Shown one piece after another: positions 9,401 through 53,040 of a stretch of DNA of 64,000 bases. This DNA is from Mytilus edulis (taxonomy: Eukaryota). Each line of letters begins with the position of its first letter. Position 1 is the first letter of the stretch. Where the stretch lies: contig NC_092349.1 of assembly GCF_963676685.1 (NCBI RefSeq), positions 76,034,473 through 76,098,472 of the forward strand, written 5' to 3'. The translations under genes and the position numbers were made by a program. Below the pieces are notes generated by a model, which worked only from the letters and a program-made list of their open reading frames with translations, was not told the DNA's origin and did no database searches.

Positions 9401-9445
9401 CAAGTATTTATAAAAACGTAAGGATTCTGTTTTACTGTGAGACAT
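9401..9445 (-). other. Displaced first 15 codons (MSHSKTESLRFYKYL) of the cGLR pseudogene copy A, left on the far side of the LINE insertion, followed by the cGLR 5' flank
   Basis: Reverse complement of 9401-9445 reads atg tct cac agt aaa aca gaa tcc tta cgt ttt tat aaa tac ttg, matching intact start MSHSTTESLHFYKYL. Nucleotide homology to 33763-33807 continues into the upstream flank. Confidence 0.65.
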
Positions 9446-9464
9446 GGTATTTAACTTTGTAGGA

Positions 9465-12830: not shown

Positions 12831-12959
12831 CCGTTATGTAATATATGTGAAACAAATGCCAACATTTATATCAATTGTCATAACAACAAATTCCTTCCTA
12901 TTTTCAATGATTGTGACATCACTGACTAAGCTGTTCTTATATGAACGTAGCATGTACAA

Positions 12960-13650
12960 TAGGTGAAACATGTGAAGCAGGATCATCTAACCCTTATCTG
13001 TATAAAAGAGGGACGGAAGATATCAGAGGGACAGCCATACTCATTAATCGAAAATAAACTGACAACGCCATGGCTTAAAATGAAAAAGACAAACAGACAA
13101 ACAATAGTACAGAAGACACAACATAGAAAAACTAAAGAATAAGCAACACGAACCCCACCAAAAACTAGGGATGATCTCAGGTGCTCCGGAAGGGTATCCT
13201 GCTCCACACGTGGCACCCGTCGTGTTGCTCGTGTTATAACAAATCCGGTATATAGTCTAATTCGGTAGGTCACATTTATGGAAGGGAAGGGGATTGTAGT
13301 TACGACGTAAGGAACATATCCTATATCATCTGTAAAACGGTTATTCTCTAACGATCAACCAATTCGTGATGGCCTGATGATTGTATAAATCATCCATATT
13401 TTAATGAGCTTCAGGTAGGTCAGTCGTTTGTTTTCTACGTAGTTTTTTGTTAACATGTTCATGTTTTTACGCTTTGACATTGTTAGTTTTTCTTCTAGTT
13501 ATGATATTTTTAAAATGTCCTTTTGGTATATTTTACCTCTTTTTATACCAGAGCTGACGAATAGTTGCCTACATCTCCATTATTTGGACTTTGTGAATAT
13601 TAGCTTATTGACAATCATATCACGACTCCTATTTTTTATGTAAATAGTTG
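12960..13650 (-). mobile_element. SINE-like dispersed repeat containing ORF 12983-13273 (TRATRRVPRVEQDTLPEHLRSS...). Copy B at 25235-25925; related copy at ~1750-2240
   Basis: gatctcaggtgctccggaagggt (13181-13203) reappears as reverse complement ccggagcaccagagatc at 1796-1812. Similar heads ggctcctgacgttgg...gcggcgggattaaacacgtgtg at 45680-45760, 47400-47470 and 56620-56680. Confidence 0.5.
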
Positions 13651-16600: not shown

Positions 16601-18299
16601 AAAATTCAATACTTAACATGCTTAATGGATAAATTCATAATCCTCGTAGCAAAATTACTATCTAAGGCTAAGGTTATTCATTATATTAATATTGCAGTTT
16701 TAGTGATTACAATGTAATTTAATAGACTCATTCAAGGCTAGAATTAACAGAAATTAATAGGTTTTGTGTGATATGATAGCCTATTTTAATGTCTGCTTAA
16801 TAACGTTGTTTTAACCGGACAGAATTTTAAAGTCAAATGAAACTTCAAATGTAAAACAAAAAGTTGTATGTGTTTTACATACATGTACTTGAATAGTTTA
16901 ACTATAAAATAATGTACAAGAACGTTAATGTGAAGGAGAATCCTTTATATCATCAAAATCTTCATATTGTTCATTTAATATCTATATATTGTAGAAAAAA
17001 ATAAGAACTCAAACATTTAACTTCATAATGTTTGGTCTACAATTACAAAAGTTTCCCATTAGTTCTTCATGTTATATTTATTTTTTGAAGTGTTGAGTTC
17101 CTGATAGAGTACGTATAAATTGTGTAACGGCCTTCTAATCAAAACAAAAAAAACATATATCCATGTGCTTTGAATGTTTGTTTCTTTATACAATGTGACT
17201 TTACCTATTTGAATATTAAAGACAACAAATGAAATGATCATCACTTAATAGTAATAAAGAGACCTAATAAGAAACCATTTTGGCCAGAAATTATGTAATT
17301 AAAAGTCAGAGCTCGTAAATATCATATATTATCATACATCAAGGTAGAAAAATATAAATTTGACAAAAATGAATATGGAGATTTTTTTTCTGCAAATATA
17401 TAAATTACAAATGCAAAATAACGGCACACTGCTTTTAAATTATTGTTTTCCTGTACACTAATTTACCGATGTGTTCCCGTATGCAGTGAACTTATCAACT
17501 ATGAAAGATCTCGTTTGAGGTTCGGAAACTGCACAGCGCAAGTGCGAAGGAAACCCTTGACGAAGGAACGTAAACAGACGTGCAGTGGAAATTCAATAGT
17601 AATACCTGATTTTAAAGAACAAATTAAATACGCAAAATCATTTAACAACTTTACAGGAAAAGTTTAATTAACTTTCGGAATAAAAATAATATATAAATGA
17701 AATATCATGGTTCTAAATTGTACTTAATGTGTACGTGCTCCACATGCTCTCTGCGTTGATTGTTTATCAATGTCGTTATCTGGTAAACTTTGGAAACATA
17801 CTCGAAAGTTAATAAGCTTAAGACCAACAACCACTGAAATAAATATTGTTTGTCAATAATACGTTATAAATTAGTAATAAAGGTAAAACTTTGCATATAT
17901 GACTTAGCTAACTAATTCGCATTACTATAAGACGTGTTACGGTACTTATCTATCCCAAATTCATGTATTCAGTTTGATGTTATATTTGTAATTCATAATA
18001 TCGGATCTTGTCAAATGTGTTGACGTTTTACTATCATATTCATGTGTTATGGTAAGGAAAATTAATCACCGCCTTCATTTATTAGATTTGATTTTGTTTA
18101 ACGTAATCTGTACGATGTTTTACGTTTGAAGTTAGATTCAAAACAAACCGGACATAGCTATATAATATAGTTAATTGCTACTTCTGTTTTCTATTAATAA
18201 GTATTGCAATGTGCATTGTTATTAAATGTAATATCAGTATTTAGTTCAAAATATAATCTTAAATCAATTCTAATTCTATCTTACTTTTGAGATATAGTT

Positions 18300-18410
18300 T
18301 TAGTCATTCAAATGTGACGTCATTTTTGTGCTGTTTCAAAATTTCAAATATGACGTAATTTTTGTGCCTTTTCACCACTTCGTATGTGACGTCACTTGTT
18401 TCACCTATTG
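18300..18410. promoter_or_regulatory. Three ~36-bp direct repeats each carrying a CRE-like palindrome (TGACGTCA, TGACGTAA, TGACGTCA); duplicate at 30578-30688
   Basis: aaatgtgacgtcatttttgtgctgttt / aaatatgacgtaatttttgtgcctttt / cgtatgtgacgtcacttgtttcacc. TGACGTCA is the canonical CREB/ATF site, so the regulatory reading is inference only. Confidence 0.35.
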
Positions 18411-18533
18411 CGTTGAGGCCTTGACTAAGTCGGGTGTGTCTATTTTTTGTGTTGGTCTTTGTAATGTATCAGGGTTTTGTTTTCTGTAATTAGTTAAAAC
18501 TTCAGTTTAATAATGTATATCTTTTATATTCAT

Positions 18534-19887
18534 AAGCCAATTTCAGCCACCCCAATACAGCATCTGCCTGTACACCAACCAACAACTGGCTTATGTCATG
18601 TTTGTAGAGCTTGTATTGCTGTGTATTGTTTGGTTTATTTACATGTAGTAGTGCAAAAGGTATTATTTGATATGCACTTGCAGTTGACAGTTTAAAGATA
18701 CATCTGGATAATTCAGTTTTACAATGATACAGCAAAGTGTTCAATATGCGTAAAGTATTTGGAAAAGGTGACTGTACCTTCTCTATAATTATTTTCATTA
18801 ATACAGTTATTTCACACATTGATCTTGTAGTTTCACATGGAAATCTTCTGAAATCATGTAAAGTCTGAGATGATGAGAAAATTTCAATTCCTTTTTGGTA
18901 TGATTGTTTTAGGAAGTTGATTAATGTGTTCCATTGTTTATTGTTAAATCTTAGATAGAACAAGTTGTTATCAGGAATGAAATAATGTAACAATGTTGAA
19001 TACTCTATACAGTATAGTAACCTTTTTAAACAGGCAATAAAACAGGCAATGATATTGTAGGGTCTCCAGACTGATGTTTTATTTTCTTCTGATATCCAAA
19101 ACATCCGGGTCTTCAGGAAGTATGAACACAATAAACCTTGTATGTCTTCCTCTCTGTTCACTATTTCTTTCATTAATATCTTTATCAAAACATAGCATAG
19201 TAGCTGGGTATGACTGAAAGAATATATCAGTATCTTCTTTGCAACAGAAAATGATATTCGCCACTAAGAATTCTCATTTGTAGATCCCTTATTACCGATT
19301 GGAACAAATAAAGTATCGCATGAAGTTATTTTTAAAATAAGTTCAGGTGAAGGCCATATTAAACGTGATCTTGAGATCAATGGTTGGGCTTGAGATACCT
19401 ACTGATCACATTTAATACAGCTTGCAAAATCATAGTTATCATACTTGTCTGATATGCATGGACCATGAATACTCATATATGATGCTAATCCTTTTAATCC
19501 TTTGAACTTTTGTGATTTATAAAGCTCACTTGAAAGTAGGTGTTTTCCATTGTGTTGTTGTAGATTTTGTTTGATATGATTTGGTAGACTATTAACAATC
19601 ACATTGGAATATAATCGTAGTTGTGTAAAACATGGCTGTGCATCCTCAGTATCCATAACTAACATTGTCTTCCAATCCTGTATTAAAGCATCGTTATCTG
19701 ATTCATATACTATATATTTAAGAACAATTCGCATTAAATCAAGATCACTACCTTTAAGATCCAATCCTTCTCCCTTACTTCCACTGGTTATATAAGGAAT
19801 GAATTTGCTGGTATTTTGAAAGTCTTCACATATATATTCTAATTGTCTTGCTCTTATAACTTTCTTTGATCCAATCCTCTGACACAA
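18534..19887 (-). pseudogene. cGLR pseudogene copy B (tandem-duplicate copy), 3'-truncated at the duplication breakpoint; carries the same nonsense and frameshift lesions
   Basis: ORFs 19399-19887 and 18502-19188 are near-identical to 7121-7609 and the N-terminal part of 5774-6910. Homology to copy A stops at 18534 (aagccaatttcagcc). Confidence 0.7.
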
Positions 19888-21678
19888 CCATTGTTCAAAG
19901 ACGTTCCGTTATTTACATCATTTAAAAATCTTTCAGAAGACGAAGTTAAGACCATCATAAATAAATTGCAATGTAAATCATGCGAACTTGACATTTTGCC
20001 TACGAAAGTACTTAAATCGTTCCTTAGTGAATTGTTGCCTGTTATCACAAAGTTAGTTAACTTGTCTCTTAGTCAAGGCGTCTTCCCATTAAGATGGAAG
20101 CAAGCGGTAGTCAGGCTTCTGCTGAAAAAGGCTGATCTTGAACTAATTTACTCAAATTATAGACCAGTAAGCAACTTGTCTTTCCTGTCTAAATTAATTG
20201 AAAAATGTGCGCTATATAGACTGAATGAACACGTGAAAGATCATGATCTCCTTCCTACAAACCAATCTGCGTATCGTCAATTCCATTCGTGCGAATCGGC
20301 CCCTCTACGACTCGTTAATGACATACTCGATGGGATGGAGCATAAAGAAGTCACCGATATGATCGCCGTTGATTTAAGTGCAGCATTCGATACTGTAGAT
20401 CATAGTATTTTGATAAAAGTACTCGAATATCAGTACGGTGTAAATGGAACCGCACTTAAATAGATCGATTCCTATTTGAGACCTCGAAGCTGTCGTGTAA
20501 ATGTCAGGTCTACAACATCATCAGAGCGACAACTTGAGTATAGCGTACCACAGGGAAGTTGCTTAGGTCCCTGGCTTTATTTAGTCTACACCGGAACTCT
20601 ATTCGACATTATTCCACCATCTATTACTGTGTACGGATTTGCCGACGACCATACTGCTAATAAACGTTTCGTGCCAACATTAACGAATGAGATGGATGCA
20701 ATTCGTGACTTACAGGACTGCGCTGTTCATATAAACACCTGGATGAACAGTAACAAACTAAAAATGAACAATGCGAAAACAGAGTTTATTCTCTTTGGCA
20801 GTCGACACCAACTCTCTAAATGTCATACAAAAGAAATAATCATTTGTGGAGATGTTATAAAATCAAAAACATGTATACGGTACTTAGGAGCTTTTCTGGA
20901 TGAGACTCTAAACTTCAAAGACCATATTACTAAAAAATGTAAAACAGCAATGATGAACTACTACAAAATAAAGTGCATAAGATCCTATCTATCGAAAGAA
21001 GCAACTGAAACTTTGGTCTTATCTTTGGTTATATCACATTTAGATTATTGCAATGTTATACTTTTTGGAATTTCACAAACTGATTTATATAAATTGCAAC
21101 GTATACAGAATATGTGTGCCAAACTTGTGTTAAACCGTTCTAAGTATGATAGTGCCAAGCAGGCATTGTTTGACTTACACTGGCTTCCGATCGAAGCCAG
21201 AATTACATTCAAAATCTTAACATATATGTACAACTGTCATGTAGGTAATGCGCCGTCATATTTGATCAATTTGTTAAATCCTCAAGTGTCGAAACGTTCA
21301 TTAAGGTCGTCAGAGTCATCTATTGGTTGTTATGCAGTCCCATATAACAAAAAGAAAACTTTTTCAGATAGAAGCTTTAGTACTGTTGGGTCAAAATTGT
21401 GGAATGAACTAGGTACAAATGTAAGAAACTCTGAATCTTTGGATACTTTTAAATGTCGGTTGAAAACATTGTATTTCCAAAATTATTTTGAACTTTTCTG
21501 ACTTTTTTCTTGTGTATCACAGTGTATATTTTCAATTTTTGGTATAGTACATACATATTGTATTTTTGTATAGTATTTTTGTATTTTATATGTCATTTAT
21601 GTACAACGCCGTTGAATACATATTGTATATGTAGAAATAGGCGTTTAATTAAGTTTTCATGTTTCATGTTTCATGTTT
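19888..21678 (+). mobile_element. LINE RT fragment, copy B of the element at 7610-9400
   Basis: ORFs 19891-20463 and 20476-21501 differ from copy A by about 5 aa (AEV/AVV, LDY/LEY, ECS/EYS, KCQ/KCH, GPK/GSK). Same TAG interruption and (TTTCATG)n tail. Confidence 0.85.
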
Positions 21679-21723
21679 CAAGTATTTATAAAAACGTAAG
21701 GATTCTGTTTTACTGTGAGACAT
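21679..21723 (-). other. Displaced first 15 codons of cGLR pseudogene, copy B
   Basis: Identical to 9401-9445 at offset +12278; cat (ATG on minus) at 21721-21723. Confidence 0.6.
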
Positions 21724-24700
21724 GGTATTTAACTTTGTAGGAATTCTAAATAGAACAGTGATGTTGCATTACTGTCCAGATATTTTTTTCTCTTTTTCTT
21801 TGTGATGGTTTCTGATTGACTATCCTGTTTTATTGTCTAGATTGTCTTTAATCCTGGTGGTTTCTGGATAGTATTGTGAAATTGTCTAGATATTCTCTCT
21901 TGCCTTATAATGGTTTCTAGATGTTCGTGTCAAATTGGCCTATTCGTCCAATATTCTTTACTGTTTTCTATATGGTACTGTATAATTGTCTAGTTCGTCT
22001 TTTATCCTTGCAATGGATTCTGTATGGTAATGTATAATTGTCTAGATATTCTAACTGTCCGTGTATTGGTTTATAGAAGTTCCTGTCAAATTGTCGAATA
22101 TTTGATCTACTCTTCTTTTCTTTTACTTGTTTCTACATCAGGTACTGTATAATTGTCTAGTTTGTCTAATATCCTTGTAATGGGATCTGGGTGGTACTGT
22201 ATAATTGCAAAGCTGTTCTCTCTAGCCTTGTAATGTTTTATCAATATTCTTGTCAAATTGTCCAATATTTTCTCTACCCTTTTTTTTTTCTTTTCTTTTA
22301 CTGGTTAATCTAAATGGTCATGTATAATGTTTGGTTTGTCTTTAACTCCTGAAGGGTTTCTGGTTTCTGATACTGTATGATAGTCTAGACATTTGTTCAT
22401 ACTTGGAATGGTAAGTGTGGGTTTTCTTATGACATTCCTTTAAAATAAACAAAGATAATCTGTTTTACATATTGTCAAAGATGGAAATTGTGTAGTCAAA
22501 GTTTGAACTGGAAATTTCCCATTTCACCTTTTCTAGTGAAGTCTTATTTCTTTTACTATTCTTTTTTTATATATATTTCTGATGTAACTGACACATCTTG
22601 TTTTAACTATAAGATACATTTAAAGTCTATATTTCAATAATTTTTCCTAGTTGCATGTTTCATAAATTTCAGTGGCAGATACATAATTTCTAAAAAGAAA
22701 GCACTTACTGCCTAAGAGCATCACTCATGCTTCAGTTATTCCGTATTTAATTAACTACATTTCCCTCCTGCCCCTATAAATATGCCTCTGAAATTTGTAT
22801 TTAATGTACTGCTTTTCATAGAATTATATTTTTAGAATCCTTTGCAATGAGGATCCTTTTTTATAAGAAACTAAATTAGCACGCATTTCCCAAACTTTCT
22901 TATTAAACAACTTAATGATATTTCCTCCTACAGTAGCTTGAACTAGGAAATATTTCTCTGTACTGAAGCAAGAGGATATGATATGTTCAGTTTCATAACT
23001 TCAAGGTATTTTTATTCACTGTTCATTTTTAAATGTGAAATATTTATATTAAATGATATCGATAAGGAAATATTGTATGATAAATGGAATGATAAATTAT
23101 GACAGCTAGTATGAATAAAAATAATATTTCATATCAAAACTTGTAAGATTTAGCCTTTTCTTAGGTTTCAAAAATCAAAAAGTAAAAGTTTAGGCATATG
23201 GAAAGTACACGAGCTTTCTGAAGCACTCAATAGGTGCCCCTTTCTTAAAATTTAAATGTATATTTACAGCATCATACAGCTTCCCCTTTCTAAAATCAAA
23301 GTGGTGAACTTTCTAGAACATTGGATAGAACCCTTTTCTGTCACAAAGTAAGACTTGTATGGTGTTTCCAGTACCTGCTACAACAACATTTATTTAAGGT
23401 TGGAAGTTAGGTCCGTTTAAAGAGAAACCTACTAGTCATTCAATATGCACTTGTAAAAGCATTTACACATTTGATTATTTGGTCTTTCCCCTTTATTCAT
23501 GATCTATTGACTTTGAAACTTTTGCATAGTATACATGTTAAAAGTTGGTGGTTAGGTCAGTTTAAGGATAACTACTAACTAATAAGTCACTGATACAAGG
23601 TTTGCAGTTCTCATTGGCAAATGTTATATCGCAAACAATATTTTGCCCCGTTCCTTCAGTCATGGTTCATAGACTTAAAAGTACAAGTATTTTGCATAAT
23701 TACCATGTTTAAGTATTACCGTTTTAAATTTCAACATCTAAATTTTACTATCAAATTACACAATGACAACACATATCTCTGTGTCCGCAGTTTAGTTCAA
23801 AACATGTATAAAATGATTGATCTTTATTTTCTATATCAGTAATAATGAGCGGAACGAACAAGTATCTTGTTCAAATAGGTTTAGCAGTACAATTCAAAAT
23901 TCTCCTGAAATACTTTTTTTGACCAAGTCTGCTTGTTACAATTTGTTAAGATTTGTAAAATTCAAATCATTTAGGCAACTTTAATGCAGAAATGTGTAAT
24001 CATAAAGCCTCTCTACTAGGTAACACCGTTTGCAAATGTTGTATTGGGCTCATGACGCCTGGTCCATGGAAATTCTGCATTTCTCATTTAAAATTGAATG
24101 CTGCTTTTTGTACTTATTGTAGTGTATGAGCATGTCAAAGCATATTAAATCTAAAGCACAGATGTCCTTCGTAATTAAGATTCATGGATTGTTAACCCTT
24201 TTACAACCCTGTTAAGTTTCAAAAGAAGCATTTATTTCTTATTATTGCAATGTTATGTACAAATCTGATATGCTATGTTATTATAACAAAACAAACCATC
24301 TACATCATTTTGACTCTGTTGGAGAGAAGTCTTGTCTCATTGGTAACTTTTAATCTCTTGTGGAAAGTTATCTCATATGCATTCAAGCATTTCATACCAT
24401 TTGCCACATCTACATCATTTGGTCTTAAGGGAGCTACCATTTGCTTTTTATCGAGGGGGGGCTAGGATGAAATTTTGAAAAAAGGCAGGACGTCGTAGCC
24501 CCCCCCCCCCCTTATAAGATCAAATGGTAGCTACCTAAGTGAAAAGTTGTCTCATATGCAATCATACACCTTACCACATCTACATCATTTGGTCTCTGGT
24601 GGCAAGTTATCTTCATTTGGTGTCTGCTAGAAAGTTGATTGCATCACTGGTAATCCAACCACATCTAAATCATTTGGTCTTGAGTGAAGAGTTGTCTCAC

Positions 24701-27700
24701 CGGCAATCAAATGACATCTACATTATTTGGTCTTGAGTGAAGAGTTGTCTCACCGGCAATCAAACCTCATCTACATTCTTTGGTCTAGAGTGGAGAGTTG
24801 TCTCACCGGCAATCAAATGACTTGTACATTATTTGGTCTTGAGTGGAGAGTTGTCTCACCGGCAATCAAATGATATCTACATTATATGGTCTTGAGTGGA
24901 GAGTTGTCTCACTGGCAATCAAACGACATCTACATCATTTGGTCTTTAGTGGAGAGTTGTCTCACTGGCAATCAAACCACATCTACATTATTTTGTTTTG
25001 AGTGTAGAGTTGTCTCATTGGCAATCAAACCACATCTACATTATTTCGTCTATGGTGGTGAGTTATCTCATTGGCAAACATACATCATCAACATCATTTG
25101 GTATACCGTTATGTAATATATGTGAAACAAATGCCAACATTTATATCAATTGTCATAACAACAAATTCCTTCCTATTTTCAATGATTGTGACATCACTGA
25201 CTAAGCTGTTCTTATATGAACGTAGCATGTACAATAGGTGAAACATGTGAAGCAGGATCATCTAACCCTAATCTGTATAAAAGAGGGACGGAAGATATCA
25301 GAGGGACAGCCATACTCATTAATCGAAAATAAACTGACAACGCCATGGCTTAAAATGAAAAAGACAAACAGACAAACAATAGTACAGAAGACACAACATA
25401 GAAAAACTAAAGAATAAGCAACACGAACCCCACCAAAAACTAGGGATGATCTCAGGTGCTCCGGAAGGGTATCCTGCTCCACACGTGGCACCCGTCGTGT
25501 TGCTCGTGTTATAACAAATCCGGTATATAGTCTAATTCGGTAGGTCACATTTATGGAAGGGAAGGGGATTGTAGTTACGACGTAAGGAACATATCCTATA
25601 TCATCTGTAAAACGGTTATTCTCTAACGGTCAACCAATTCGTGATGGCCTGATGATTGTATAAATCATCCATATTTTAATGAGCTTCAGGTAGGTCAGTC
25701 GTTTGTTTTCTACGTAGTTTTTTGCTAACATGTTCATGTTTTTACGCTTTGACATTGTTAGTTTTTCTTCTAGTTATGATATTTTTAAAATGTCCTTTTG
25801 GTATATTTTACCTCTTTTTATACCAGAGCTGACGAATAGTTGCCTACATCTCCATCATTTGGACTTTGTGAATATTAGCTTATTGACAATCATATCACAA
25901 CTCCTATTTTTTTATGTAAATAGTTGGGTTTTTTTTTATAATAAACAGTATGTTGTTTCTTAATTCTTCTAGACAGTTTTATGCATTTTAATAAAATGGT
26001 GGAACTGGTTTTAGAATATTGCTATCTTAGCTGGTTTCCAGATGTCGGTAGTATATTTTGGCCGACACGGTGTATCTACTTTTCATTGCATGTGCTGTCT
26101 TTGGTTTTTCTTGTTCAAATTAGTGGAACTCCTGTTTGTAGCTAAACTATGCAGATTTTTACAGGACTAACAGTAAAACAATTTTAAGAATACTGAAACG
26201 TTACTCTATCAGGATATGAAATTTCAAGTTTGTGACAAGCAAAGATAAAAATCTGAGATACTTATTTTTTAAAGAAACCCCTCAACACATTTTAGGCCCA
26301 ATACCGTGAATTCATTAATATCCGTTAGATACTAATTTTCGTAGATTTTGTGGGTATGTGGGAACCATGAATTTAAATGTTCAACGAATTACAAATTTCC
26401 TAGAGGAAGGTATGCAGACTTTGCCAAAAGCACGAAGTAAGATATACACGAATATGCAAGTTTTCCTCAATCCACGAAAATAAATGAATCCACAGTAGCA
26501 ATTTGATTCAGAAACACGAATGAATAGTAATAAAAGATATTGACTGTTTTAATTATAAATTTTTGTCAGATATTGGGAATCCTTCTGTTTATCCATGTAG
26601 AACCATAAAAAAAATTGCGCCTACTATCCCCTACTTTTCTATTATAATTTTGCATTAGTTTAAAAAGGCAAATCTCAAAATATTAGAAAAATTCTTGTTA
26701 TTTTTTAGTGTTTGAAAAAAGTACTAGCTAATGTTAAATGTTTGACTTTATATCTTTACACTATGAATGACAGACCTTCCATGTTGATTATTTTAGAGAT
26801 ATACTTGCATATAATTCCTTTGTATATCAAAATGTATATCAAAGTGCCATCTATTGATTATTGTGGAAAATTTTATTTATCAAATTGAAGTTTTTGATAA
26901 GAATAATGAAAGTGTTTTGTCAGTATCATATGTGAATCCTTTTTTGTTCAAGATCTGTATTGATATTAAAGTTGATTCCCACACTTTTGTTAAATGCTCA
27001 TATTCCAATTCTTGCATTATGTAATTGAGATTACAATTACAGTGTAAAGGACAGCTACCATAATTTTCAAACAATTATACTGAAAGGTGTAAGTATTAAT
27101 TGGATGTAACTCTACCCAAATACAGTTATATTGATATATCATGACAGCTGATTATTATATTGGTATTCAGGTCAAGAATGTGTGTATTTGATCTGTTACA
27201 CATCTAACTAGTACTAAATGCACAAAATCTTGACATCAATAGTAGTAATATTCGTTTCATAATCATTTGATATAAGCTATTTTAAATTATTGTCTCTTTA
27301 AGTTACAGTTATGGGTAATTTGGTTGAAGCCATACACACAATTGCATAACTCTTACATGAGCGTTTTTTGCAAAGAAATATTTTTTTTATTCCCATTATA
27401 TTGCTTTTTAAAAATAAGTAATTAAAAATTATCTCAACGTTAGGTATTTGTGCATGTTTATATGAATACAGGAAATGTATTTTTCCTTAATGAATAATAA
27501 ACATCAATTTGAATAAAAGATAGTTATTAATTTTTTTGTGTTGACAAATTGTTCTTGGAATTATTAAGCCAATTATTATTGATGGTATATGAAAATATGG
27601 TACACATTTGATGATTTCTCTTAACACTCTTGTCAAATTGATTGATTTTCAAATGTTTCTTAAAAATTATGAAAAAATCTTATAGTGTCTTCAGTTGAAA

Positions 27701-30700
27701 TACCAAAATAATTGCATCAATAATGCAAAATTCTCCATCGTTTGGCAATAGAATAGAATTTGTGCAGTGAGATTATGGAAATAAAATAACAAAGAAAAAT
27801 TGAAAGTATGGTCAGAAAATAATTGCAGACTACTGAAATGGCTTAATCTTAACATCCATGATGCTTTAATTTTGTTGTTTGTATACTATCAATTTTATAT
27901 AACAGTCTTTTAAAAAGCATGATATTTTGAAACAGAGTAGCAACATTTTTACTTGAGTTAATATGTCTGCTATCTATATTTTGTACTATCATTAACTTCT
28001 CTGAAACACACTCGAGACTACTATATTACAGTAGTCTCAAAATAAATCTGCTTTTACTCACTTATTTAGTAGTTAAGTTATTAACTAACTACAGGCAAAG
28101 GGAAAATGCTATGAAGTAAAATGATTTATCGACTCTAGAATTATACAACAATGTTCATAATTATTTACTCATAATTGTATAGTGTGTGTGCAGTTACATG
28201 TTTTATTGACCCTAACACTATTTAATAAGAATGTAGTTATTCATTGTAAAACAGAATAGATATGAAACAACAATTCAGGAAAGAGGAAGTATGAAAAGGT
28301 TACTTTGTTGGCCCTTCCAAACGACAAATCTAGATGTATTAAATATTAAGCCAATGAGATTTACCTCAACAATACTTTTTTAAGATTTTCAGTTAATAAT
28401 TTGAAAATGAAGAGATATATGTAGATAAGATGTATTTGACTAAGATGTTAATAGATGTAAAATATGTTTCTGGGTAGGACCTTGACTCATAAATATTGTT
28501 TTTCCAAAAAGGAGTGTAAAATAGTGAAAATATCCTTTCAGCATTACAAATTCCTATCTTATAGTGCATAATCATTATCAATATAATTAACAAATGGCTC
28601 TCATCATACTTCCTCCTTTTTAGATGTGATTAAAGTTTTAAAAAAATCAACAGTTTATTGAATGATAAATTCATAAAATATTCCATTCATTTATTTTTAA
28701 CTTCTATCCAATGAATGTATTAAATTGATCAATTCGGAAGTTAAATTAAACAAATATAAGCTACAAGTTGAGTTTTAAGCAGCATTATCAACTTTACCAA
28801 TACCAATTTTGGTGCTATAGATACATATATTTATTGCCTCATCCGTACTAGTAATGCTTATGACAAAAATAGTTCAAAATTCAATACTTAACATGCTTAA
28901 TGGATAAATTCATAATCCTCGTAGCAAAATTACTATCTAAGGCTAAGGTTATTCATTATATTAATATTGCAGTTTTAGTGATTACAATGTAATTTAATAG
29001 ACTCATTCAAGGCTAGAATTAACAGAAATTAATAGGTTTTGTGTGATATGATAGCCTATTTTAATGTCTGCTTAATAACGTTGTTTTAACCGGACAGAAT
29101 TTTAAAGTCAAATGAAACTTCAAATGTAAAACAAAAAGTTGTATGTGTTTTACATACATGTACTTGAATAGTTTAACTATAAAATAATGTACAAGAACGT
29201 TAATGTGAAGGAGAATCCTTTATATCATCAAAATCTTCATATTGTTCATTTAATATCTATATATTGTAGAAAAAAATAAGAACTCAAACATTTAACTTCA
29301 TAATGTTTGGTCTACAATTACAAAAGTTTCCCATTAGTTCTTCATGTTATATTTATTTTTTGAAGTGTTGAGTTCCTGATAGAGTACGTATAAATTGTGT
29401 AACGGCCTTCTAATCAAAACAAAAAAAACATATATCCATGTGCTTTGAATGTTTGTTTCTTTATACAATGTGACTTTACCTATTTGAATATTAAAGACAA
29501 CAAATGAAATGATCATCACTTAATAGTAATAAAGAGACCTAATAAGAAACCATTTTGGCCAGAAATTATGTAATTAAAAGTCAGAGCTCGTAAATATCAT
29601 ATATTATCATACATCAAGGTAGAAAAATATAAATTTGACAAAAATGAATATGGAGATTTTTTTTCTGCAAATATATAAATTACAAATGCAAAATAACGGC
29701 ACACTGCTTTTAAATTATTGTTTTCCTGTACACTAATTTACCGATGTGTTCCCGTATGCAGTGAACTTATCAACTATGAAAGATCTCGTTTGAGGTTCGG
29801 AAACTGCACAGCGCAAGTGCGAAGGAAACCCTTGACGAAGGAACGTAAACAGACGTGCAGTGGAAATTCAATAGTAATACCTGATTTTAAAGAACAAATT
29901 AAATACGCAAAATCATTTAACAACTTTACAGGAAAAGTTTAATTAACTTTCGGAATAAAAATAATATATAAATGAAATATCATGGTTCTAAATTGTACTT
30001 AATGTGTACGTGCTCCACATGCTCTCTGCGTTGATTGTTTATCAATGTCGTTATCTGGTAAACTTTGGAAACATACTCGAAAGTTAATAAGCTTAAGACC
30101 AACAACCACTGAAATAAATATTGTTTGTCAATAATACGTTATAAATTAGTAATAAAGGTAAAACTTTGCATATATGACTTAGCTAACTAATTCGCATTAC
30201 TATAAGACGTGTTACGGTACTTATCTATCCCAAATTCATGTATTCAGTTTGATGTTATATTTGTAATTCATAATATCGGATCTTGTCAAATGTGTTGACG
30301 TTTTACTATCATATTCATGTGTTATGGTAAGGAAAATTAATCACCGCCTTCATTTATTAGATTTGATTTTGTTTAACGTAATCTGTACGATGTTTTACGT
30401 TTGAAGTTAGATTCAAAACAAACCGGACATAGCTATATAATATAGTTAATTGCTACTTCTGTTTTCTATTAATAAGTATTGCAATGTGCATTGTTATTAA
30501 ATGTAATATCAGTATTTAGTTCAAAATATAATCTTAAATCAATTCTAATTCTATCTTACTTTTGAGATATAGTTTTAGTCATTCAAATGTGACGTCATTT
30601 TTGTGCTGTTTCAAAATTTCAAATATGACGTAATTTTTGTGCCTTTTCACCACTTCGTATGTGACGTCACTTGTTTCACCTATTGCGTTGAGGCCTTGAC

Positions 30701-31893
30701 TAAGTCGGGTGTGTCTATTTTTTGTGTTGGTCTTTGTAATGTATCAGGGTTTTGTTTTCTGTAATTAGTTAAAACTTCAGTTTAATAATGTATATCTTTT
30801 ATATTCATTTGATAAAATTTACTGTTTGCAATAGCATAAATTGTTCTAAATAATAAGGATGTTCTTATCCCAAGCAGAAAACCCTATCTGTATTTGGCAC
30901 AGCCTTTTTGAACTTATGATCCTCAGTGCTGTACAATTTTGTACTTTTTTTTACTTTCGAACTTTTATATCTGGGCGTCACTGGTGAGTCTTGTGTGGAC
31001 GAGTCGCGTTTCTGACGTATTGAATTTTAAACCTGATGCCTTTTGTTAGCTATTATTCATGTGTTTCTAATATGTCTAATATGTTCTATTTATTTGTATT
31101 GTAATCCTGTAATATTATGTTGTCATTTTAATGTTATATTTAACATTGGCATTAAAGTGCGAGGTTTGGCATGCCACAAAACCAGGTTCAACCCACCATT
31201 TCTTTCTTTAAAAATGTCCTGTACCAAATCAGGAATATGGCCATTGTTATATTAAAGTTCGTTTCTGTGTGTTACATTTTAACGTTGTGTTAGCGTTGTG
31301 TCGTTTATTTTCTCTTATATTTGAGTGTGAATTCACATTACTATAAGACGTGTCACGGTACTTTTCTATCCCAAATTCATGTATTTGGTTTTGATGTTAT
31401 ATTTGTTATTCTCGTCGGATTTTGTCTAATGCTTAGTCCGTTTCTGTGTGTGTTACATTTTAATGTTGTGTCGTTGTTCTCCTCTTATATTTAATGCGTT
31501 TCCCTCAGTTTTAGTTTGTTATCCCGATTTTGTATTTTGCCTATAGATTTAAGAGTTTTGAACAGCGGTATACTACTGTTGCCTTTATTTAACTACATAT
31601 GCATGCATTGGTTCAAAAATTTCGATAACAATAATATTACAAAAAAACCTTTGTGATTTAAAGTTATTAGTACAATAAATATTACTAAAAAGCAAAGCAA
31701 GCTTGTATGACAATAGCAGTGTGATCTTATTGGCTATTGTTATCAAAAGAATGAAAATATTGAGTTACAAACTGCAGCTGTGCTATTAGCGCAGTTAATT
31801 TATATTTCGAGACAATGTATGGTTATTTTATGCATACTAAATTCTATAAACCATACTGTTAAAGGGCACAATCGTTTGGTCATAACTCAGGCC

Positions 31894-33807
31894 TCATCGG
31901 AGTTGAAGCAGTCTAAAAGCAGCACTTGTATGGTTGTCGTCATCGATCTGCGCAGCAATGTGAAAATATCTTCTTGCTAAATCTCTCTCACCTAACATCT
32001 GAAAAGCTATCCCCAGTAAAAGAAAATTATTTGCTTTAATATATATATTTTCCCCTGGTTGGTTGTGTTCTCTTGCTGTTTCTGATAACTTGTTTATACA
32101 ATACCGACTTGATTTAAAGTTCTGGAGATGGTAACAACACAGGAAACGGAGGAAATGTGCAAATGGTAGGGAACTCATTGGTATTATTAAATCAAAGTTA
32201 TGATGAGACTTCAGTTCCAATGGAATGACTGAATTAAATCGCATCTTGGAAAATGAAATATTTGGAGATGCAATATTCTTACATAGTGATATTAGCTTCA
32301 GTATCACTGTCTGTTTCAGTGTTATCTTTGACAAAGATGATTCGTCTGTACATTTTGACAAAGTGTAATTTATAATATCTATTGATGTTAGATAATTTTT
32401 GTGACCATAGAAGAAACAAGCTAATTTCAGCCATCCCGATACTGCATCTGAATGTACACCAACCAACAACTGGCTCAGGTCACGTTTGTAGAATTTATAT
32501 TGCTGTTTATTGTTTGGATTATTTATATGAGGTAATGCAAAAGGTAATGTTTGACATACACTGGCAAATGACAGTTTAAAGATACATCTTGATAATTCAG
32601 TTTTACAATGATACAGCAAAGGGTTCAGTATGCCATAAGTGTTTGTAAACAATAACTCTCTCTTTTCAATCATTGTTTGTATTAATGAAGTTATTTCACA
32701 CACTGATGTTGTATTCTTACATGGAAATCTTCTGTAATCATGTAAACTCGGAGATGATAAGAAAATCTTAATTCCTTTTTGGAATGATTTGGTAAGGAAG
32801 TTGATTAATGAGTTCCTTTGTTTATTGTTAAACTTTAAATAGAAAAAGTTGTTATTAGGAATGAAATAATGTAATAACGTTGAATACTCTATGCAGTATA
32901 ATAATCTTTTTAAACAGGCCATATAACAAGGAATGATATTGTCTGGTCTCCAGACTGATGTTTCATTTTCTTCTGACATCCAAAACATCAGGGTCTTTAA
33001 AAAGTATGAACAAAATAAATCTTTTAGGTCTTCATTTCCATTTACTATTTCTTTCATTAATATTTTTAACAAAGCATAGCACAATAGCTGGGTATGACTA
33101 AAAGAATATATCAGCATCTTTTCTGCTACAGAAAAGGATATTCGCCACTGAAGATTCTCATTTATAGATCCCTTGTTGCCAATTGGAACAAATAAGGTAC
33201 CACATGACGTTATTTTGGAAATGAGTTCAGGCGAAGGCCATATTAAACGTGATCTTGAGATCCATGGTTGTGCCTGCGATACCCACTGATCGCATTTAAG
33301 GCATTGAGCAATATCAATTGTACCAGCATTGTCTGCTAAGCATGGACCATGAATATTAAAATCTGAGAGAAAGCCTGGCAGTAATTTCAACCTTTGTGAT
33401 TTGTAAAGCTCACTTGATAGTAGAATTTTTCCTCTGTGCTCTTGTAGATTTTGTTTTACAATATTTGGTAAAGTATTAACATTGGTATATAATTGTAAAT
33501 GTGTAAAACCTGGTTGTGTGTCTTCTGTGTCCATGACTAGCACTATCCTCCAACAATCCTTTACAGCATCTTTCTCTGATTCGTAAAGTGCATACATAAG
33601 TTCAATTCGCATTATATCAAGATCGCTACCTTTCAGATCCAGTCCTTCTCCCTTACTTCCACTAGTTATTTCAGGAAAATGTATTGCGGTACCTCTGAAG
33701 TCACTTCTTATGTATGACAATCGTCGAGCTTTTACCATTTTCTCTGATCCAATCTTTTGACACAAATATTTATAAAAATGTAAGGATTCTGTTGTACTGT
33801 GAGACAT
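31894..33807 (-). CDS. cGAS-like receptor (cGLR, Mab-21-family nucleotidyltransferase), 637 aa, apparently single exon, with ~250-aa C-terminal extension of unknown function
   Basis: Uninterrupted 1914-nt ORF. NTase signature ITSGSKGEGLDLKGSDLDIM (G-S, then D-h-D) and downstream VLVMDTED. Mab-21/cGAS helical-domain signatures WRISFSVAEK (cf. cGAS WRLSFSHIEK), CSYFLKTLMFWM (cf. SSYHVKTAFFHV) and LHYFIPNNNFFY (cf. YFIPEFNLF). Family call from remembered cGAS/Mab-21 motifs, not a search. Confidence 0.75.
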   Translation of the reverse strand: MSHSTTESLHFYKYLCQKIGSEKMVKARRLSYIRSDFRGTAIHFPEITSGSKGEGLDLKGSDLDIMRIELMYALYESEKDAVKDCWRIVLVMDTEDTQPGFTHLQLYTNVNTLPNIVKQNLQEHRGKILLSSELYKSQRLKLLPGFLSDFNIHGPCLADNAGTIDIAQCLKCDQWVSQAQPWISRSRLIWPSPELISKITSCGTLFVPIGNKGSINENLQWRISFSVAEKMLIYSFSHTQLLCYALLKILMKEIVNGNEDLKDLFCSYFLKTLMFWMSEENETSVWRPDNIIPCYMACLKRLLYCIEYSTLLHYFIPNNNFFYLKFNNKQRNSLINFLTKSFQKGIKIFLSSPSLHDYRRFPCKNTTSVCEITSLIQTMIEKRELLFTNTYGILNPLLYHCKTELSRCIFKLSFASVCQTLPFALPHINNPNNKQQYKFYKRDLSQLLVGVHSDAVSGWLKLACFFYGHKNYLTSIDIINYTLSKCTDESSLSKITLKQTVILKLISLCKNIASPNISFSKMRFNSVIPLELKSHHNFDLIIPMSSLPFAHFLRFLCCYHLQNFKSSRYCINKLSETAREHNQPGENIYIKANNFLLLGIAFQMLGERDLARRYFHIAAQIDDDNHTSAAFRLLQLR

Positions 33808-41867: not shown

Positions 41868-44800
41868 GACAAGACAAGACAAGACAATTTATTACAACTT
41901 AGGCACACGTATGGTGCTACAAGAGGATAACAATTATACATTAAAAATTACATACATATAAATACATTTACAAGAAAGTCACACAATAGATTAATAATTG
42001 ATATCATACAATAAAACTGAAATATATTTGGTTGATTTGTTTGCAAAATTCTTAATTGCAACGTGGTTAGAAATTATTGTAACATGCTATGAATTATGAA
42101 AATATTTTTTCAATATGTCTTAGAAACATGCACACTTTTGTTAGCACTGGCACGTTACAGTGTGATAATAGACCAATAAATTTCAATTGGGAAGGATTTT
42201 TTATGTAATATGTAGGTATATACCTTTCTCTTAAAGACATAATTTGTTTATTGGAACATACAAAAAAATAATGATATTCGTCACCAATGGTATTTGAATC
42301 GCAGTGACAGCATATACGATTTTCTCTTGGTGTATTTTTCCATCGACCAACTTCTATAGGGATTTTGATGTTTGAACATCTAAATTTACTGTAGATGTAT
42401 CGATCTGCCACTTTAAGATTGAGTAAATATGGCTCTAAACAAAACATTGTTTTGTATGAAGCATAAAACACACCTCTAGATGAGTTTGTCATATCAGCAG
42501 ATAGGCTCTGTCCGAATTGGTCAACCAATCTCTGTTTTATTTCTTTTTTAATATCCGAACTTTTGATATCACCCTGTGCATTCCAGACAAAAGAAAATCC
42601 TGTATCATCTAAAATTTGTTTCAAGGAAGATAACCATTTAAATGAGTATTGGCCTGAGTTATGTAAGTTATACATTAACTGATACAAGATCCCAGATAAT
42701 TTGTTACTACTGCTTTGCACTAGCCTTGACCAAAAGCATAGTAATTTAGTTTTGATATTAATTTTTAATGGAAATCTGCCAGTTTCCCCATAGACCATAT
42801 AGTTTGGTGTTGTTGATCTAACATTCAGGACTCTTTTTAGGAAACTCAAGTGCACCTTTTCAATCATGTCAACATTTTCATGACCCCAGATTTCCGACCC
42901 ATAAAGCAAAATTGGAGCGACCATACAATCAAATAGTCGAAACTGCAGATCTGAAGGGATGTTTACATTTCTTAACTTATAGTATAATGCATACAGTGCT
43001 TTTTGTGATTGTTCAACAAGTTTTTTCTTTGATAAATTAAAATTACAATTGTATCTTTAATATTAATAATCCCAGGTAATTATAACTGTCGGTGAGCTGT
43101 AACTCCTCGCCCCTTAGCATGAATCTCATATTTCTTTTACGCTTCGCCTTCTCAAACACCATTACTTTTGTCTTATCAATGTTTACATTTAGTTTCCAGT
43201 CAGTACAGTATTCATCAAACTTGTTTAACATTATTTGTAAATCGTTAGCTGATTCTGCCAATAATATTGTATCATCAGCATATAATAGCAAGAAAATTCG
43301 AATATAAATGCCTAGTTCATTTAGACAGTATTCATTTACCTTTTCTAAACCTGTTATATCATGCTGAATAAAATAGCTTTCAAGATCATTAAGGAAAAGA
43401 GAAAAAAGAAAGGGTGATAAGTTTTCACCTTGCCTAACTCCAACTTCGCACGGAAAGAAATTTGAACAACTCGAGTTATGTCTTACACATGATTTGACAT
43501 TAGAATAGAGGTTATAAATAGAGTTAAATATTTTGCCGGTTATGTTACTAGAAATAAGCTTTTGCCACAGTCCTACCCTCCATACAGTATCAAAGGCTTT
43601 CTTGAAATCTACAAATGTACAGAATAAACGTTTTCCAGAGAGTAAATAAAGTTGAATCAAACAGTATAAACTAAATATATTATCAAGTGTGGAGTACCCT
43701 TTCCTAAATCCCGCTTGGCATTTTGAGAGTTATTCTACTTCTTGGGCAAACTTGTCTAGTCTGTTATTTAGTATAGCTGTAAATACTTTACCTAAACATG
43801 ATACCAGTGTAATACCTCGATACGAGTCTGGATCGTTAAGAGCTCCCTTATTCTTATAAATGGAATTAATTATTCCCATTGACCAGATTTCGGGTATAAT
43901 TCCTGTGTCGAATACAAAATTGAACAATTTTACATGAAGAGGTAAACATACAGACATGGAATTTTTAATAAACTCGTTTCTTATTCCATCATATCCAGCG
44001 GCTTTGTTATTTTTTAATTTTTTAATGACTTTGATAATTTCTTCCTCGGTAATAGGCCCATTTAAAATTTCGTCGAACTCATTTAACTCTAGGTTAGGTA
44101 ATTGAAACTCTTCCAACTCATTTGCCACAGTTTCGTTAAGCTTCTTAAAATGTGCATACATTACTTCTAGTGAAATTGGACTTTCCTTTTTTTGTTTCGG
44201 AGAGAATTTATTTAAAACTTTCCAAAATTCTTTTGGGTTATTTGTTGATATATTACGAAGCTCTTTTTCTGTCTTCAACTGATAGTTTTGAAAACATTTG
44301 TTTATTTCTTTTTTGTATTCCTTACTTGCTCTTTTCAGTGAATTCTTATTATTTATACTTTTCTGTTTATTATATTTATATTTAGCCGAGTGAAATTGTT
44401 TTCTTTTCAGCTTACATGATTTATTAAACCATGGTTTATTCCTATTTTTGGCCCCATGATTTTTTTTAATCGGATTTTTATTAGCAAAGGTTCCAAAAGA
44501 ATCCTTAGCTGCCTGCGAGTAAAAATTTGTTAAACTAGTTATAACTCTGTTTATATCATGATTACCTTTTTTTGAGGATTCTATTTCATTACACAAATCA
44601 AGAACTTTTACCTCGTTCTTTCTTATATTTTCGATGAACTTGTGTTTATCCTTTTCAATCCATTTTATTGTCTTCCTTTTATGTGAACTTTTTTCTTTTT
44701 CTATAGTACTCATTTCTCCGTTCTCCGTTCTCCTGTCTCTGTTCTCCTTTCATCATTCTTTGTTATACTTTCTCCGTTCTCCATTCTCCTTTTTTTCGCC

Positions 44801-48039: not shown

Positions 48040-49440
48040 AGTAATTTTAAGGAAATGTTGCAGTTTTTGGTTATTATCTTGAATATTATAATAGATAGAG
48101 ATAAACTGTAAGCAGCAATAATGTTCAGCAAAGTAAGATCTACAAATAAGTCAACATGACCAAAATTGTCAGTTGACCCATTAAGGAGTTATTGCCCTTT
48201 ATAGTCATTTTTATACGCCCGTCAAAATTTTGACGGGACGTATTATGGTATACAAATGTCCGGTGTCCGTCCGTCTGTCTGTCCGGCGTAAACATGTCGC
48301 ACCGTAACTTAAGGACGACTTTTCTAAATTTCATGAAACTTAATATAGTTGTTTTTTATGATGGTCAAATGATACTTTTTGGTGAAAATAAGATTTAAAC
48401 TTTTTGAGTTACGGCACTTTGTAACTAAAACAGGGGTGTTTTTTTTTCACATGTCGCACCGTATCTCAAAAACGATTCTTGATTATTGCTTAAAACTTTA
48501 CACACTTCTTAGTTATATTAATCTTAATATCTGTATACTTTTTTGTGATGATTCAAAATTTCATTTTTGAGTTATTGAGTATTTTGTAAAAAAGGGGGAG
48601 GGTTTTTTACATGTCGCGCTGTATCTCAAAAACGTTTTATGATTATTGCTTAAAACTTTACACACTTCTTTCTTATATTAATCTAAAGATCTGTATACTT
48701 TTTGGTGATGATTCAAAATTTCATTTGTGAGTTATTGAGTATTTTGTAAAAAAAGGGGAGGGTTTTTTTTACATGTCGCGCCGTATCTCAAAAACAATTT
48801 ATGATTATTGCTTGAAACTGTACACACTTCTTTGTTATATTAATCTAAAGATCTGTATACTTTTTGGTTTGATTCAAAATTTTATTTTAGTGATATTTGA
48901 AAAAAAAAAGACAGGGGGGGGGGGTTCACATGGTAATTGCTTAAACTTTCTCAGAAACTATTATTGCTCTTTACAGTTTATCTCTATCTATAATAATATT
49001 CAAGATAATAACAAATAACAGCAAAATTTACTTAAAATTAACAATTCAGGGGCAGCAACCCAACAAAAGGATGTCCGATTCATCTGAAAATTTCAGGGCA
49101 GATAGATCTTGACCTGATAAATAATTTTACCCATGTCAGATTTCCTCTAAATGCTTTGGATTTTGAGTTATTAGCCAAAAACTGCATTTTACCCCTATGT
49201 TCTATTTTTAGACATGGGGGGCCATCTTGGTTGGTTGGCCGGGTCACGCCACACATTTTTTAAACTAGATACCCCAATGATGATTGTGGCCAAGTTTGGT
49301 TTAATTTGGCCCAGTAGTTTCAGAGGAGAAGATTTTTGTAAAAGTTAACGACGACGGACGACGACGGACGCCGGACGCCAAGTGATGGGAAAAGCTCACT
49401 TGGCCCTTTGGGCCAGGTGAGCTAAAAACGAATGAAAAGA
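48040..49440. mobile_element. Composite: inverted head/body fragment of the same family (48040-48215, minus), central ~160-bp x3.7 tandem repeat (48290-48900), then + oriented body/tail copy (48935-49440) with (GACGRC)n and terminal hairpin
   Basis: The two arms share ~130 bp in inverted orientation (cagtttatctctatct..ataataaccaaaaac). Perfect 20-bp palindrome cccgtcaaaattttgacggg at 48219-48238. Confidence 0.55.
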
Positions 49441-52519: not shown

Positions 52520-53040
52520 TATAGAGTTGTCTCGATGGCCATCATACCCCAGCTTCATCATTTGGTCTTTGACAGAGAGTTGTCTCATTGGCCATTTTAC
52601 CACATCTACATAATTTGGTCTCTGATGGAGAGTTTTCTTAAAGGCAATCATACAACATCTGCATCATTTGATCTCTGCATGGTTGAGAGTTGTCTCCTTA
52701 ACAATCAAACCACATCTACATTATTTGGTCTCTGATGGAGATTCGTTTCATTTACAATCATGCCAGATTTTTGGTGGAGCTAGAGATGTCTCATTGGTCA
52801 TTTTACCACATCTACATAATTTGGTCTCTGATGAAGAGTTATCTCATTGACAATCATACGACATCTACCATGTCTACATCATTTGGTCTCTGGTAGAGAG
52901 TTGTCGCCTTGACCATCATACCACATCTACATCAGTTGGTTTCTGATGGGGAGTTGTCTCTTTATCAATTATACCACATTATTTTATCTCTGTTGTAGAG
53001 TGGTCCCATTGGCAAGCATACCACATCTTCATTATTTTTA
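52520..53040. repeat. Second, more diverged array of the same ~57-bp satellite family (about 9 units)
   Basis: Units such as catctacataatttggtctctgatggagagttttcttaaaggcaatcatacaa and atctacattatttggtctctgatggag. Single dispersed monomer-like copies in reverse orientation at ~38185-38230, ~45425-45475 and ~56375-56425. Confidence 0.75.

What the first reader, a model, noticed from the sequence alone, without database searches (positions are those of the whole stretch)
31894..33807. Intact, apparently intronless cGAS-like receptor (Mab-21 NTase) with a long uncharacterised C-terminal extension
The 637-aa ORF has the Pol-beta-type NTase signature and the Mab-21 helical-domain motifs of cGAS/cGLRs. 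After the point where the Mab-21 fold should end, ~250 further residues remain, ending in a helical, TPR-like segment (LLLGIAFQMLGERDLARRYFHIAAQIDDD). cGLR families are hugely expanded and domain-shuffled in bivalves as innate immune sensors producing cyclic dinucleotide signals. An uncharacterised C-terminal module on an otherwise catalytically complete cGLR is a candidate ligand-sensing or signalling domain. That reading is inference.
Basis: partly seen in the sequence, partly recalled or inferred. Interest (0 to 1): 0.7.

Follow-up and report, generated by a model that had tools for sequence, protein, structure and literature searches.

The report
Mussel cGAS-like receptor with TPR tail
This is an intact, single-exon blue-mussel gene for a cGAS-like innate-immune enzyme fused to a TPR-type helical tail, one ordinary member of a family of several hundred near-identically built mussel genes whose architecture class has already been described.

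The parts
31894..33807 (-). Complete single-exon CDS, 637 codons plus a stop at 31894-31896, of a cGLR-TPR protein (= M. edulis XP_071177885.1)
   Evidence: An in-frame stop lies 46 codons upstream of the ATG. The N-terminus matches the family consensus MSxxxxESLxFYxYLCQKIG.
32758..33807 (-). aa 1-350: cGAS/cGLR (Mab-21) nucleotidyltransferase domain, N-lobe plus helical C-lobe
33610..33669 (-). aa 47-66, ITSGSKGEGLDLKGSDLDIM: GS loop (G50, S51) and the metal-binding pair D62/D64
   Evidence: G50, E54, G55, S61, D62, D64 and M66 are invariant in 88/88 paralogues, and S51 in 87/88. The homologous stretch of paralogue P0079 hits Pfam NTP_transf_2 at E 6e-7.
33295..33324 (-). aa 162-171, GTIDIAQCLK: strand carrying the third catalytic Asp, D165
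   Evidence: D165 is invariant in 88/88. It aligns to 'sVDLTLGIK' of the solved cGLR 8gjy. It lies on strand E164-172 of the model.
   Evidence: D93 is kept in 51/88 (N in 20, E in 9) and D96 in 56/88.
32800..33081 (-). aa 243-336: Mab-21 C-terminal HhH/H2TH-like helical domain, the most conserved part of the protein
   Evidence: Pfam PF20266, E 1.8e-14. It has the lowest column entropy. Mean identity over aa 201-350 is 67%.
32518..32757 (-). aa 351-430: helical linker, poorly conserved and modelled with low confidence
   Evidence: pLDDT 52-69. Mean identity is 26%, and 1 of 80 columns is >=90% conserved. Entropy reaches 3.0 bits.
31897..32517 (-). aa 431-637: degenerate TPR-type alpha-solenoid, interrupted by an insert at about aa 487-545 that holds the conserved S-x-I-P-x-E-L motif
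32341..32442 (-). aa 456-489, VSGWLKLACFFYGHKNYLTSIDIINYTLSKCTDE: first TPR-like hairpin (W4, L7, A8, F11 signature positions)
   Evidence: pLDDT 90-94. Weak TTC7B, ANAPC3 and TPR_17 matches at this position in the profile and in paralogues. Read directly from the sequence.
31933..32034 (-). aa 592-625, ANNFLLLGIAFQMLGERDLARRYFHIAAQIDDDN: terminal canonical TPR motif
   Evidence: In the query, TPR_2 scores E 0.03-0.04 and is sub-threshold. The same position in paralogues gives TPR_2 4e-8 and TPR_1 1e-8; 11/24 members hit TPR_2. Designed CTPR proteins score E 1e-4. pLDDT 96-97.

Best explanation
The ORF encodes an intact member of a Mytilus-expanded subfamily of cGAS-like receptors, built as a Mab-21 nucleotidyltransferase fused to a C-terminal TPR-type solenoid. 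Shown here: the enzyme domain has the whole cGAS/cGLR fold, and its pol-beta catalytic set (G50-S51, D62, D64, D165) is kept in every full-length paralogue examined, so purifying selection is acting on catalysis. Inferred: like characterised cGLRs, it is a cytosolic pattern-recognition enzyme. On this view a ligand activates it, probably a nucleic acid given the basic enzyme domain (pI 8.6). It then condenses NTPs into a cyclic di- or oligonucleotide second messenger, which is read by one of the 8-9 mussel STING paralogues. Also inferred: the TPR tail is a protein-interaction or regulatory module (autoinhibition, oligomerisation, or recruitment of a partner or ligand). It has its own near-invariant positions but evolves faster than the enzyme. 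I put the identity claim (an intact cGLR-TPR family member) at about 0.9. I put the full mechanistic chain at about 0.5-0.6.
Against: There are no expression, biochemical or ligand data for this gene or for any TPR-fused cGLR. No paper in the searched library reports any. The literal active-site regex of Li et al. is not matched: S49 replaces Q/T before GS, and the spacer is 98 aa against a maximum of 90. It matched 0 of 120 family members. Pfam's Mab-21 NTase model does not recognise the N-lobe. The family-median pI of the enzyme domain is only 7.8, so nucleic-acid sensing is not a family-wide expectation. The two adjacent paralogue copies are a pseudogene and its truncated duplicate, so turnover at this locus is high and an intact ORF does not prove function. 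I could not inspect the model's inter-domain geometry (PAE or coordinates).
Confidence: 0.6

Rival explanations
1. It is an active nucleotidyltransferase whose output is not a cyclic dinucleotide. It could make linear 2'-5' oligonucleotides as OAS does, or act as a terminal transferase or protein nucleotidylylase, and so signal outside the STING axis.
For: The GS-x-G-E-G...S-D-x-D loop and the NTP_transf_2, MTPAP-like and PAP Pfam hits in paralogues resemble generic pol-beta NTases more than the Pfam Mab-21 N-lobe. The N-lobe spacer (91-108 aa) is longer than in catalogued cGLRs. Product chemistry cannot be read from the sequence.
Confidence: 0.15
2. It is a non-catalytic Mab-21 scaffold or adaptor, like MAB21L1 or MiD49/51, which uses the TPR tail to assemble complexes. 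On this view the conserved acidic residues bind a nucleotide or metal only as a cofactor.
Against: All five catalytic positions are invariant or nearly so across 88 paralogues that have diverged to 37% identity, and so are the surrounding E54, G55, S61 and M66. That pattern is what selection on catalysis would produce. The model is closer to active cGLRs than to MAB21L1 or MiD49.
Confidence: 0.07
3. It is a young, functionally redundant or unexpressed duplicate in a fast birth-and-death gene cluster. The ORF is intact only because there has not been enough time for it to decay.
For: The same 64-kb window holds a pseudogenised paralogue, ~80% identical at the DNA level, with stops, a lost start and a frameshift. 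It also holds a truncated copy of that pseudogene, made by a 99.67%-identical 12.3-kb duplication. Retroelement ORFs are abundant. Its closest intact relatives are only ~68-70% identical, and no transcript evidence was available.
Against: At ~30% protein divergence from its nearest paralogues, a 637-codon frame in 32%-GC DNA would not stay open by chance. Every family-invariant residue is retained. RefSeq models it as a protein-coding gene.
Confidence: 0.1

Closest known systems
TPR-fused cGLRs, a minority architecture class in the metazoan cGLR census of Li et al. 2023 (Cell; preprint PMC9980059, Fig. 1C and S2A)
   Same: The domain order is the same, a cGLR enzyme followed by tetratricopeptide repeats. 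The host group is the same too: bivalves with >100-200 cGLRs per genome, including M. galloprovincialis at 218 and M. coruscus at 119.
   Different: I could not establish whether this Mytilus subfamily is among the catalogued entries. The stored supplementary tables are truncated, and neither the accessions nor the family peptide motifs were found. The family does not match the paper's literal motif. No TPR-fused cGLR has been characterised functionally in the literature I searched.
Cv-cGLR1 (Crassostrea virginica, PDB 8gjw; dsDNA-activated, makes 2'3'-cUA) and Sp-cGLR1 (Stylophora pistillata, PDB 8gjy; dsRNA-activated, makes 3'3'-cUA)
   Different: Identity is only 20-22%. They are single-domain enzymes of ~350 aa with no TPR tail. 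The focal protein has a longer and more variable N-lobe insert (aa ~100-160).
Vertebrate cGAS
   Different: The query has a gap opposite the 12-residue cGAS insertion 'ktccessgakcc'. From published cGAS structures, that insertion is the Zn-thumb used in dsDNA recognition. The query also lacks the disordered basic N-terminus and adds a 287-aa tail.
TPR sensor and regulatory domains of STAND NTPases (e.g. PH0952, PDB 6mfv) and PlcR/Rap peptide receptors
   Different: This is fold-level resemblance only, at 7-12% identity. It is an analogy for mechanism and not evidence of homology or of the same ligand type.
MAB21L1 / MiD49-MiD51 (non-catalytic Mab-21 proteins)
   Different: They score lower than the active cGLRs do. 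The focal family keeps a strictly conserved catalytic triad.

Membership tests
cGLR (criteria of Li et al. 2023, PMC9980059) | Catalytic residues of the active site are present: GS loop, [DE]h[DE]h, and a later h[DE]h | tested here: met
   G50-S51, D62-L-D64-I and I164-D165-I166 are present, and are invariant or kept in 87/88 across 88 paralogues. D165 aligns with the catalytic strand of solved cGLR 8gjy.
cGLR (criteria of Li et al. 2023, PMC9980059) | Literal motif h[QT]GS-X8-20-[DE]h[DE]h-X50-90-h[DE]h | tested here: not met
   It matched 0 of 120 family members. S49 replaces Q/T. The spacer is 98 aa in the query and 91-108 aa in most of the family. The paper's own Table S1 contains 'SGS' entries, e.g. 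XP_019643132.1, so the rule was applied loosely. I treat this as a variant and not as a disqualification.
cGLR (criteria of Li et al. 2023, PMC9980059) | Sequence homology across both the NTase core and the C-terminal helix bundle | tested here: met
   PF03281 scores 31.8 bits and PF20266 scores 54.1 bits; both are above the 24.1-bit cut-off. N-lobe homology is supported only indirectly, through the NTP_transf_2 hit in paralogue P0079.
cGLR (criteria of Li et al. 2023, PMC9980059) | AlphaFold-predicted structural homology to known cGLR/CD-NTase enzymes | tested here: met
cGLR (functional definition) | Ligand-stimulated synthesis of a nucleotide second messenger that activates STING or another receptor | not testable with these tools
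   This needs biochemistry. No published data were found.
Pfam Mab-21 (PF03281 + PF20266) | Scores above the gathering thresholds | tested here: met
   The PF03281 match covers only profile positions 123-196.
TPR repeat proteins | 34-residue helix-turn-helix repeats recognised by TPR profiles and forming a solenoid | tested here: met
OAS (2'-5'-oligoadenylate synthase) | Closest fold or sequence relative is OAS | tested here: not met
Bacterial CD-NTase (CBASS) | Match to CD-NTase defence-system models | tested here: not met

The most novel reading that the evidence does not exclude
The TPR tail is the actual sensor. It would recognise a non-nucleic-acid ligand such as a pathogen protein or peptide, or hold the enzyme autoinhibited until such a ligand binds, as the TPR arrays of bacterial STAND/Avs and PlcR/Rap receptors do. 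The several-hundred-member Mytilus cGLR-TPR family would then be a diversified repertoire of protein-sensing cGLRs. Alternatively, the tail could couple cGLR output to a TIR or other effector without going through STING. My evidence does not exclude either reading: the tail is family-specific, it has its own near-invariant residues together with hypervariable segments, and it is basic.
Probability: 0.15. Interest if true: 0.75.

Novelty: new member of a known kind. Interest (0 to 1): 0.3.

Why it matters
As it stands, this is one annotated member of a very large and already recognised bivalve cGLR expansion, and its architecture class (cGLR-TPR) has been published. Its value is as an entry point. 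No TPR-fused cGLR has a known ligand, product or partner. The family analysis here gives a clean construct map: enzyme aa 1-350, linker 351-430, TPR 431-637, catalytic residues D62/D64/D165. It also shows that the subfamily falls outside the literal published active-site regex (SGS instead of [QT]GS, and a 91-108-aa spacer), so regex-based censuses may undercount it. If the tail proved to be a ligand sensor or an effector adaptor, that would extend cGLR signalling beyond nucleic-acid sensing.

Tried and rejected
1. The VLVMDTED aspartates as the third catalytic site: rejected, because they are not conserved, and D165 takes that role.
2. The tail as part of the Mab-21 helical lobe: rejected. 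cGAS and cGLR structures align only to about aa 1-350, and the tail on its own matches TPR proteins.
It aligned only the C-lobe (aa 189-336, 97% probability) and could not confirm N-lobe residue equivalence.
5. Checking whether this subfamily is in Li et al.'s Table S1/S2, by accession and by peptide motif. Nothing was found, but the stored files are truncated, so this is inconclusive.
6. The look-up of encoding contigs for the focal protein: not on record.
7. Foldseek against AFDB50, to look for the two-domain architecture in other species: the library was unavailable.
8. Looking for the tail outside Mytilus. Every named hit is Mytilus. P0102 and several JGI/ENA members are unnamed and may be other bivalves, but the organism could not be determined.
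9. Literature searches for functional work on TPR-cGLRs or Mytilus cGLRs returned only Li et al. 2023 and incidental mentions.
10. tRNA scan, PADLOC and NCBIfam: all empty.

Full report
OBSERVATION. The window is AT-rich eukaryotic DNA, about 32% GC. The reported ORF exists at 31894..33807 on the minus strand: 637 codons starting with ATG. With this base composition a stop is expected every ~13 codons, so an open frame of this length is expected 2.8e-17 times in the window. The translation is 100% identical over its full length to a RefSeq protein of Mytilus edulis, XP_071177885.1, 'uncharacterized protein', on a 93.9-Mb chromosome record. The window is therefore blue-mussel DNA, and the annotated CDS is exactly this single ORF. 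An in-frame stop lies 46 codons upstream of the ATG, and the N-terminus matches the family consensus, so the start is correct. Three other family members for which DNA could be fetched (P0010, P0102, P0375) are also single uninterrupted ORFs. 'Intronless' therefore holds for the coding region. Introns in the UTRs cannot be excluded without transcripts.

The protein therefore belongs structurally with the active cGLR/cGAS group and not with OAS or generic NTases. The cGAS C-terminus aligns to family-profile position 349, so the Mab-21 fold ends at about aa 350.

ACTIVE SITE. In an alignment of 88 full-length paralogues (37-70% identical to the query), G50, E54, G55, S61, D62, D64, M66 and D165 are invariant, and S51 is present in 87/88. 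D62 and D64 sit at the start of strand E63-68, and D165 sits on strand E164-172 of the model. D165 aligns with the 'VDLTL' strand of the solved cGLR 8gjy. In paralogue P0079, the stretch homologous to query aa 37-104 passes Pfam's NTP_transf_2 threshold (E 6e-7). A sub-threshold alignment pairs the family's GS...SDlDvM segment with mouse cGAS GS...EFDVMF. The literal motif of Li et al. 2023, h[QT]GS-X8-20-[DE]h[DE]h-X50-90-h[DE]h, matches none of 120 family members. The reasons are that S49 precedes GS and that the spacer is 98 aa in the query and 91-108 aa in most members. The paper's own Table S1 contains 'SGS' entries, so this makes the family a variant rather than excluding it. The query has a gap opposite the 12-residue cGAS insertion 'ktccessgakcc'. 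From published cGAS structures, that insertion is the Zn-thumb.

THE TAIL. Residues 351-637 (287 aa) lie outside the Mab-21 fold. They divide into two parts.
- A linker (aa 351-430). It has low pLDDT (52-69), 26% mean identity and almost no conserved columns.
- A region (aa 431-637) with confident helical hairpins (pLDDT 88-98 at aa 455-486 and 546-637), 41% mean identity and 21 columns that are >=90% conserved.

FAMILY AND DISTRIBUTION. The full protein has 683 homologues at E<=1e-3. The best 120 (E<=1e-114) are almost all Mytilus (edulis, galloprovincialis, trossulus, californianus, coruscus), and most are 600-700 aa long. An exhaustive HMMER search of 1.84 billion representatives with the tail profile finds 191 clusters at E<=1e-30 and 445 at E<=1e-10. 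Every named hit examined is Mytilus. A few unnamed ENA/JGI members have the same architecture but sit ~38% from all Mytilus sequences alike, P0102 for example. They may come from another genus. Variants exist, such as a TIR-Mab21-TPR protein (P0108). RefSeq names some paralogues 'cyclic GMP-AMP synthase-like receptor 2'.

LOCAL CONTEXT. tblastn finds two further copies in the window. The first, at 5731-7621 (-), is a pseudogene. It has in-frame stops, has lost its start where a degenerate reverse-transcriptase element abuts it, and has a C-terminal frameshift. The second, at 18517-19899 (-), is a truncated duplicate of that pseudogene. It was created by a 12,278-bp head-to-tail duplication (6256-18533 versus 18534-30808, 99.67% identical) whose left edge lies inside the pseudogene. 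The focal gene is ~80% identical to the pseudogene at the DNA level and is the only intact copy. This is a typical birth-and-death cluster.

WHAT IS KNOWN. Li et al. 2023 (PMC9980059) catalogued more than 3,000 cGLRs. They noted extreme radiations in bivalves, with 218 cGLRs and 9 STINGs in M. galloprovincialis and 119 and 8 in M. coruscus. They stated that some cGLRs are fused to tetratricopeptide or ankyrin repeats (Fig. 1C, S2A). They also report that nucleic-acid-sensing cGLRs have pI >8.5. The focal enzyme domain has pI 8.64, and the family median is 7.84. I found no functional study of a TPR-fused cGLR or of Mytilus cGLRs. Whether this exact subfamily is in their tables could not be decided, because the stored supplements are truncated.

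MECHANISM. Shown: a complete cGLR fold, a strictly conserved catalytic set, and a separate TPR solenoid with its own conserved positions. Inferred: ligand-activated synthesis of a cyclic nucleotide second messenger that acts on STING, with the tail serving as a regulatory, oligomerisation or partner/ligand-binding module. The rivals are a non-CDN NTase (0.15), a non-catalytic scaffold (0.07) and a silent young duplicate (0.10). All are weaker, for the reasons given in their entries.

VERDICT. This is a new, already annotated member of a known kind, so interest is modest (0.3). The most novel reading still open is that the TPR tail is itself a non-nucleic-acid sensor or an effector adaptor (probability about 0.15).

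Noticed in passing
window 6256-18533 and 18534-30808: A 12,278-bp head-to-tail tandem duplication at 99.67% identity. Its left breakpoint lies inside a Mab21-TPR pseudogene. It is either a very recent segmental duplication or an assembly artefact.
   Followed up: partly
window 5731-7621 (-) and 18517-19899 (-): Two further copies of the same gene family. The first is a pseudogene, ~69% aa and ~80% nt identical to the focal gene, with in-frame stops at the W175 codon and just before W221, a lost start codon and a C-terminal frameshift. The second is its duplicate, cut off after aa ~472 by the duplication boundary.
   Followed up: yes
window 7613-9223 (+), 19891-21501 (+), 43043-43660 (-), 61625-63025 (-): Fragmented reverse-transcriptase (RVT_1) ORFs from retroelements. 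The one at 7613 abuts the 5' end of the pseudogene exactly where its homology to the focal gene stops (codon ~14), which suggests that an insertion removed the start and the promoter.
   Followed up: partly
window 12369-12827, 24644-25102, 52523-52960; also 9696-10008, 21825-22286, 48427-48887, 58165-58771: A 53-bp satellite array of ~8.7 copies is present in both duplication units, with a diverged third array. There are also several 156-167-bp tandem repeats. No tRNA genes are present.
   Followed up: no
related protein P0108 (M. edulis XP_071147330.1, 824 aa): This paralogue has an N-terminal TIR domain in front of the Mab-21 and TPR modules (TIR_2 E 9e-7). It is a three-part TIR-cGLR-TPR architecture that links the family to TIR signalling.
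   Followed up: no
family alignment A1; query aa 47-66 and 66-164: The whole subfamily falls outside the literal cGLR active-site regex published by Li et al. 2023: it has T/S-S-G-S instead of [QT]GS, and a DxD-to-D spacer of 91-108 aa against a maximum of 90. Regex-based censuses could therefore miss it.
   Followed up: partly
query aa 432-448 (window 32464-32514) and aa 526-533 (window 32209-32232): The tail carries two conserved non-TPR motifs of unknown role. One is N-N-K-x-Q-Y-x-x-Y-K, where N433 and K434 are >=90% conserved, Y437 is invariant and Y440 is >=90% conserved. The other is S-x-I-P-x-E-L, where P529 and E531 are >=90% conserved; it lies inside a low-confidence insert between TPR hairpins.
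   Followed up: no
L002 10001-11944 (ENA ERZ21930238 contig ctg25753l, 568 kb); L003 1117-2913 (JGI 3300042084): These are unnamed assemblies that encode the same cGLR-TPR architecture as single ORFs. P0102 is 82% identical to a few unnamed sequences but only 35-40% identical to every Mytilus member, so it probably comes from a different genus. The organism was not identified.
   Followed up: partly
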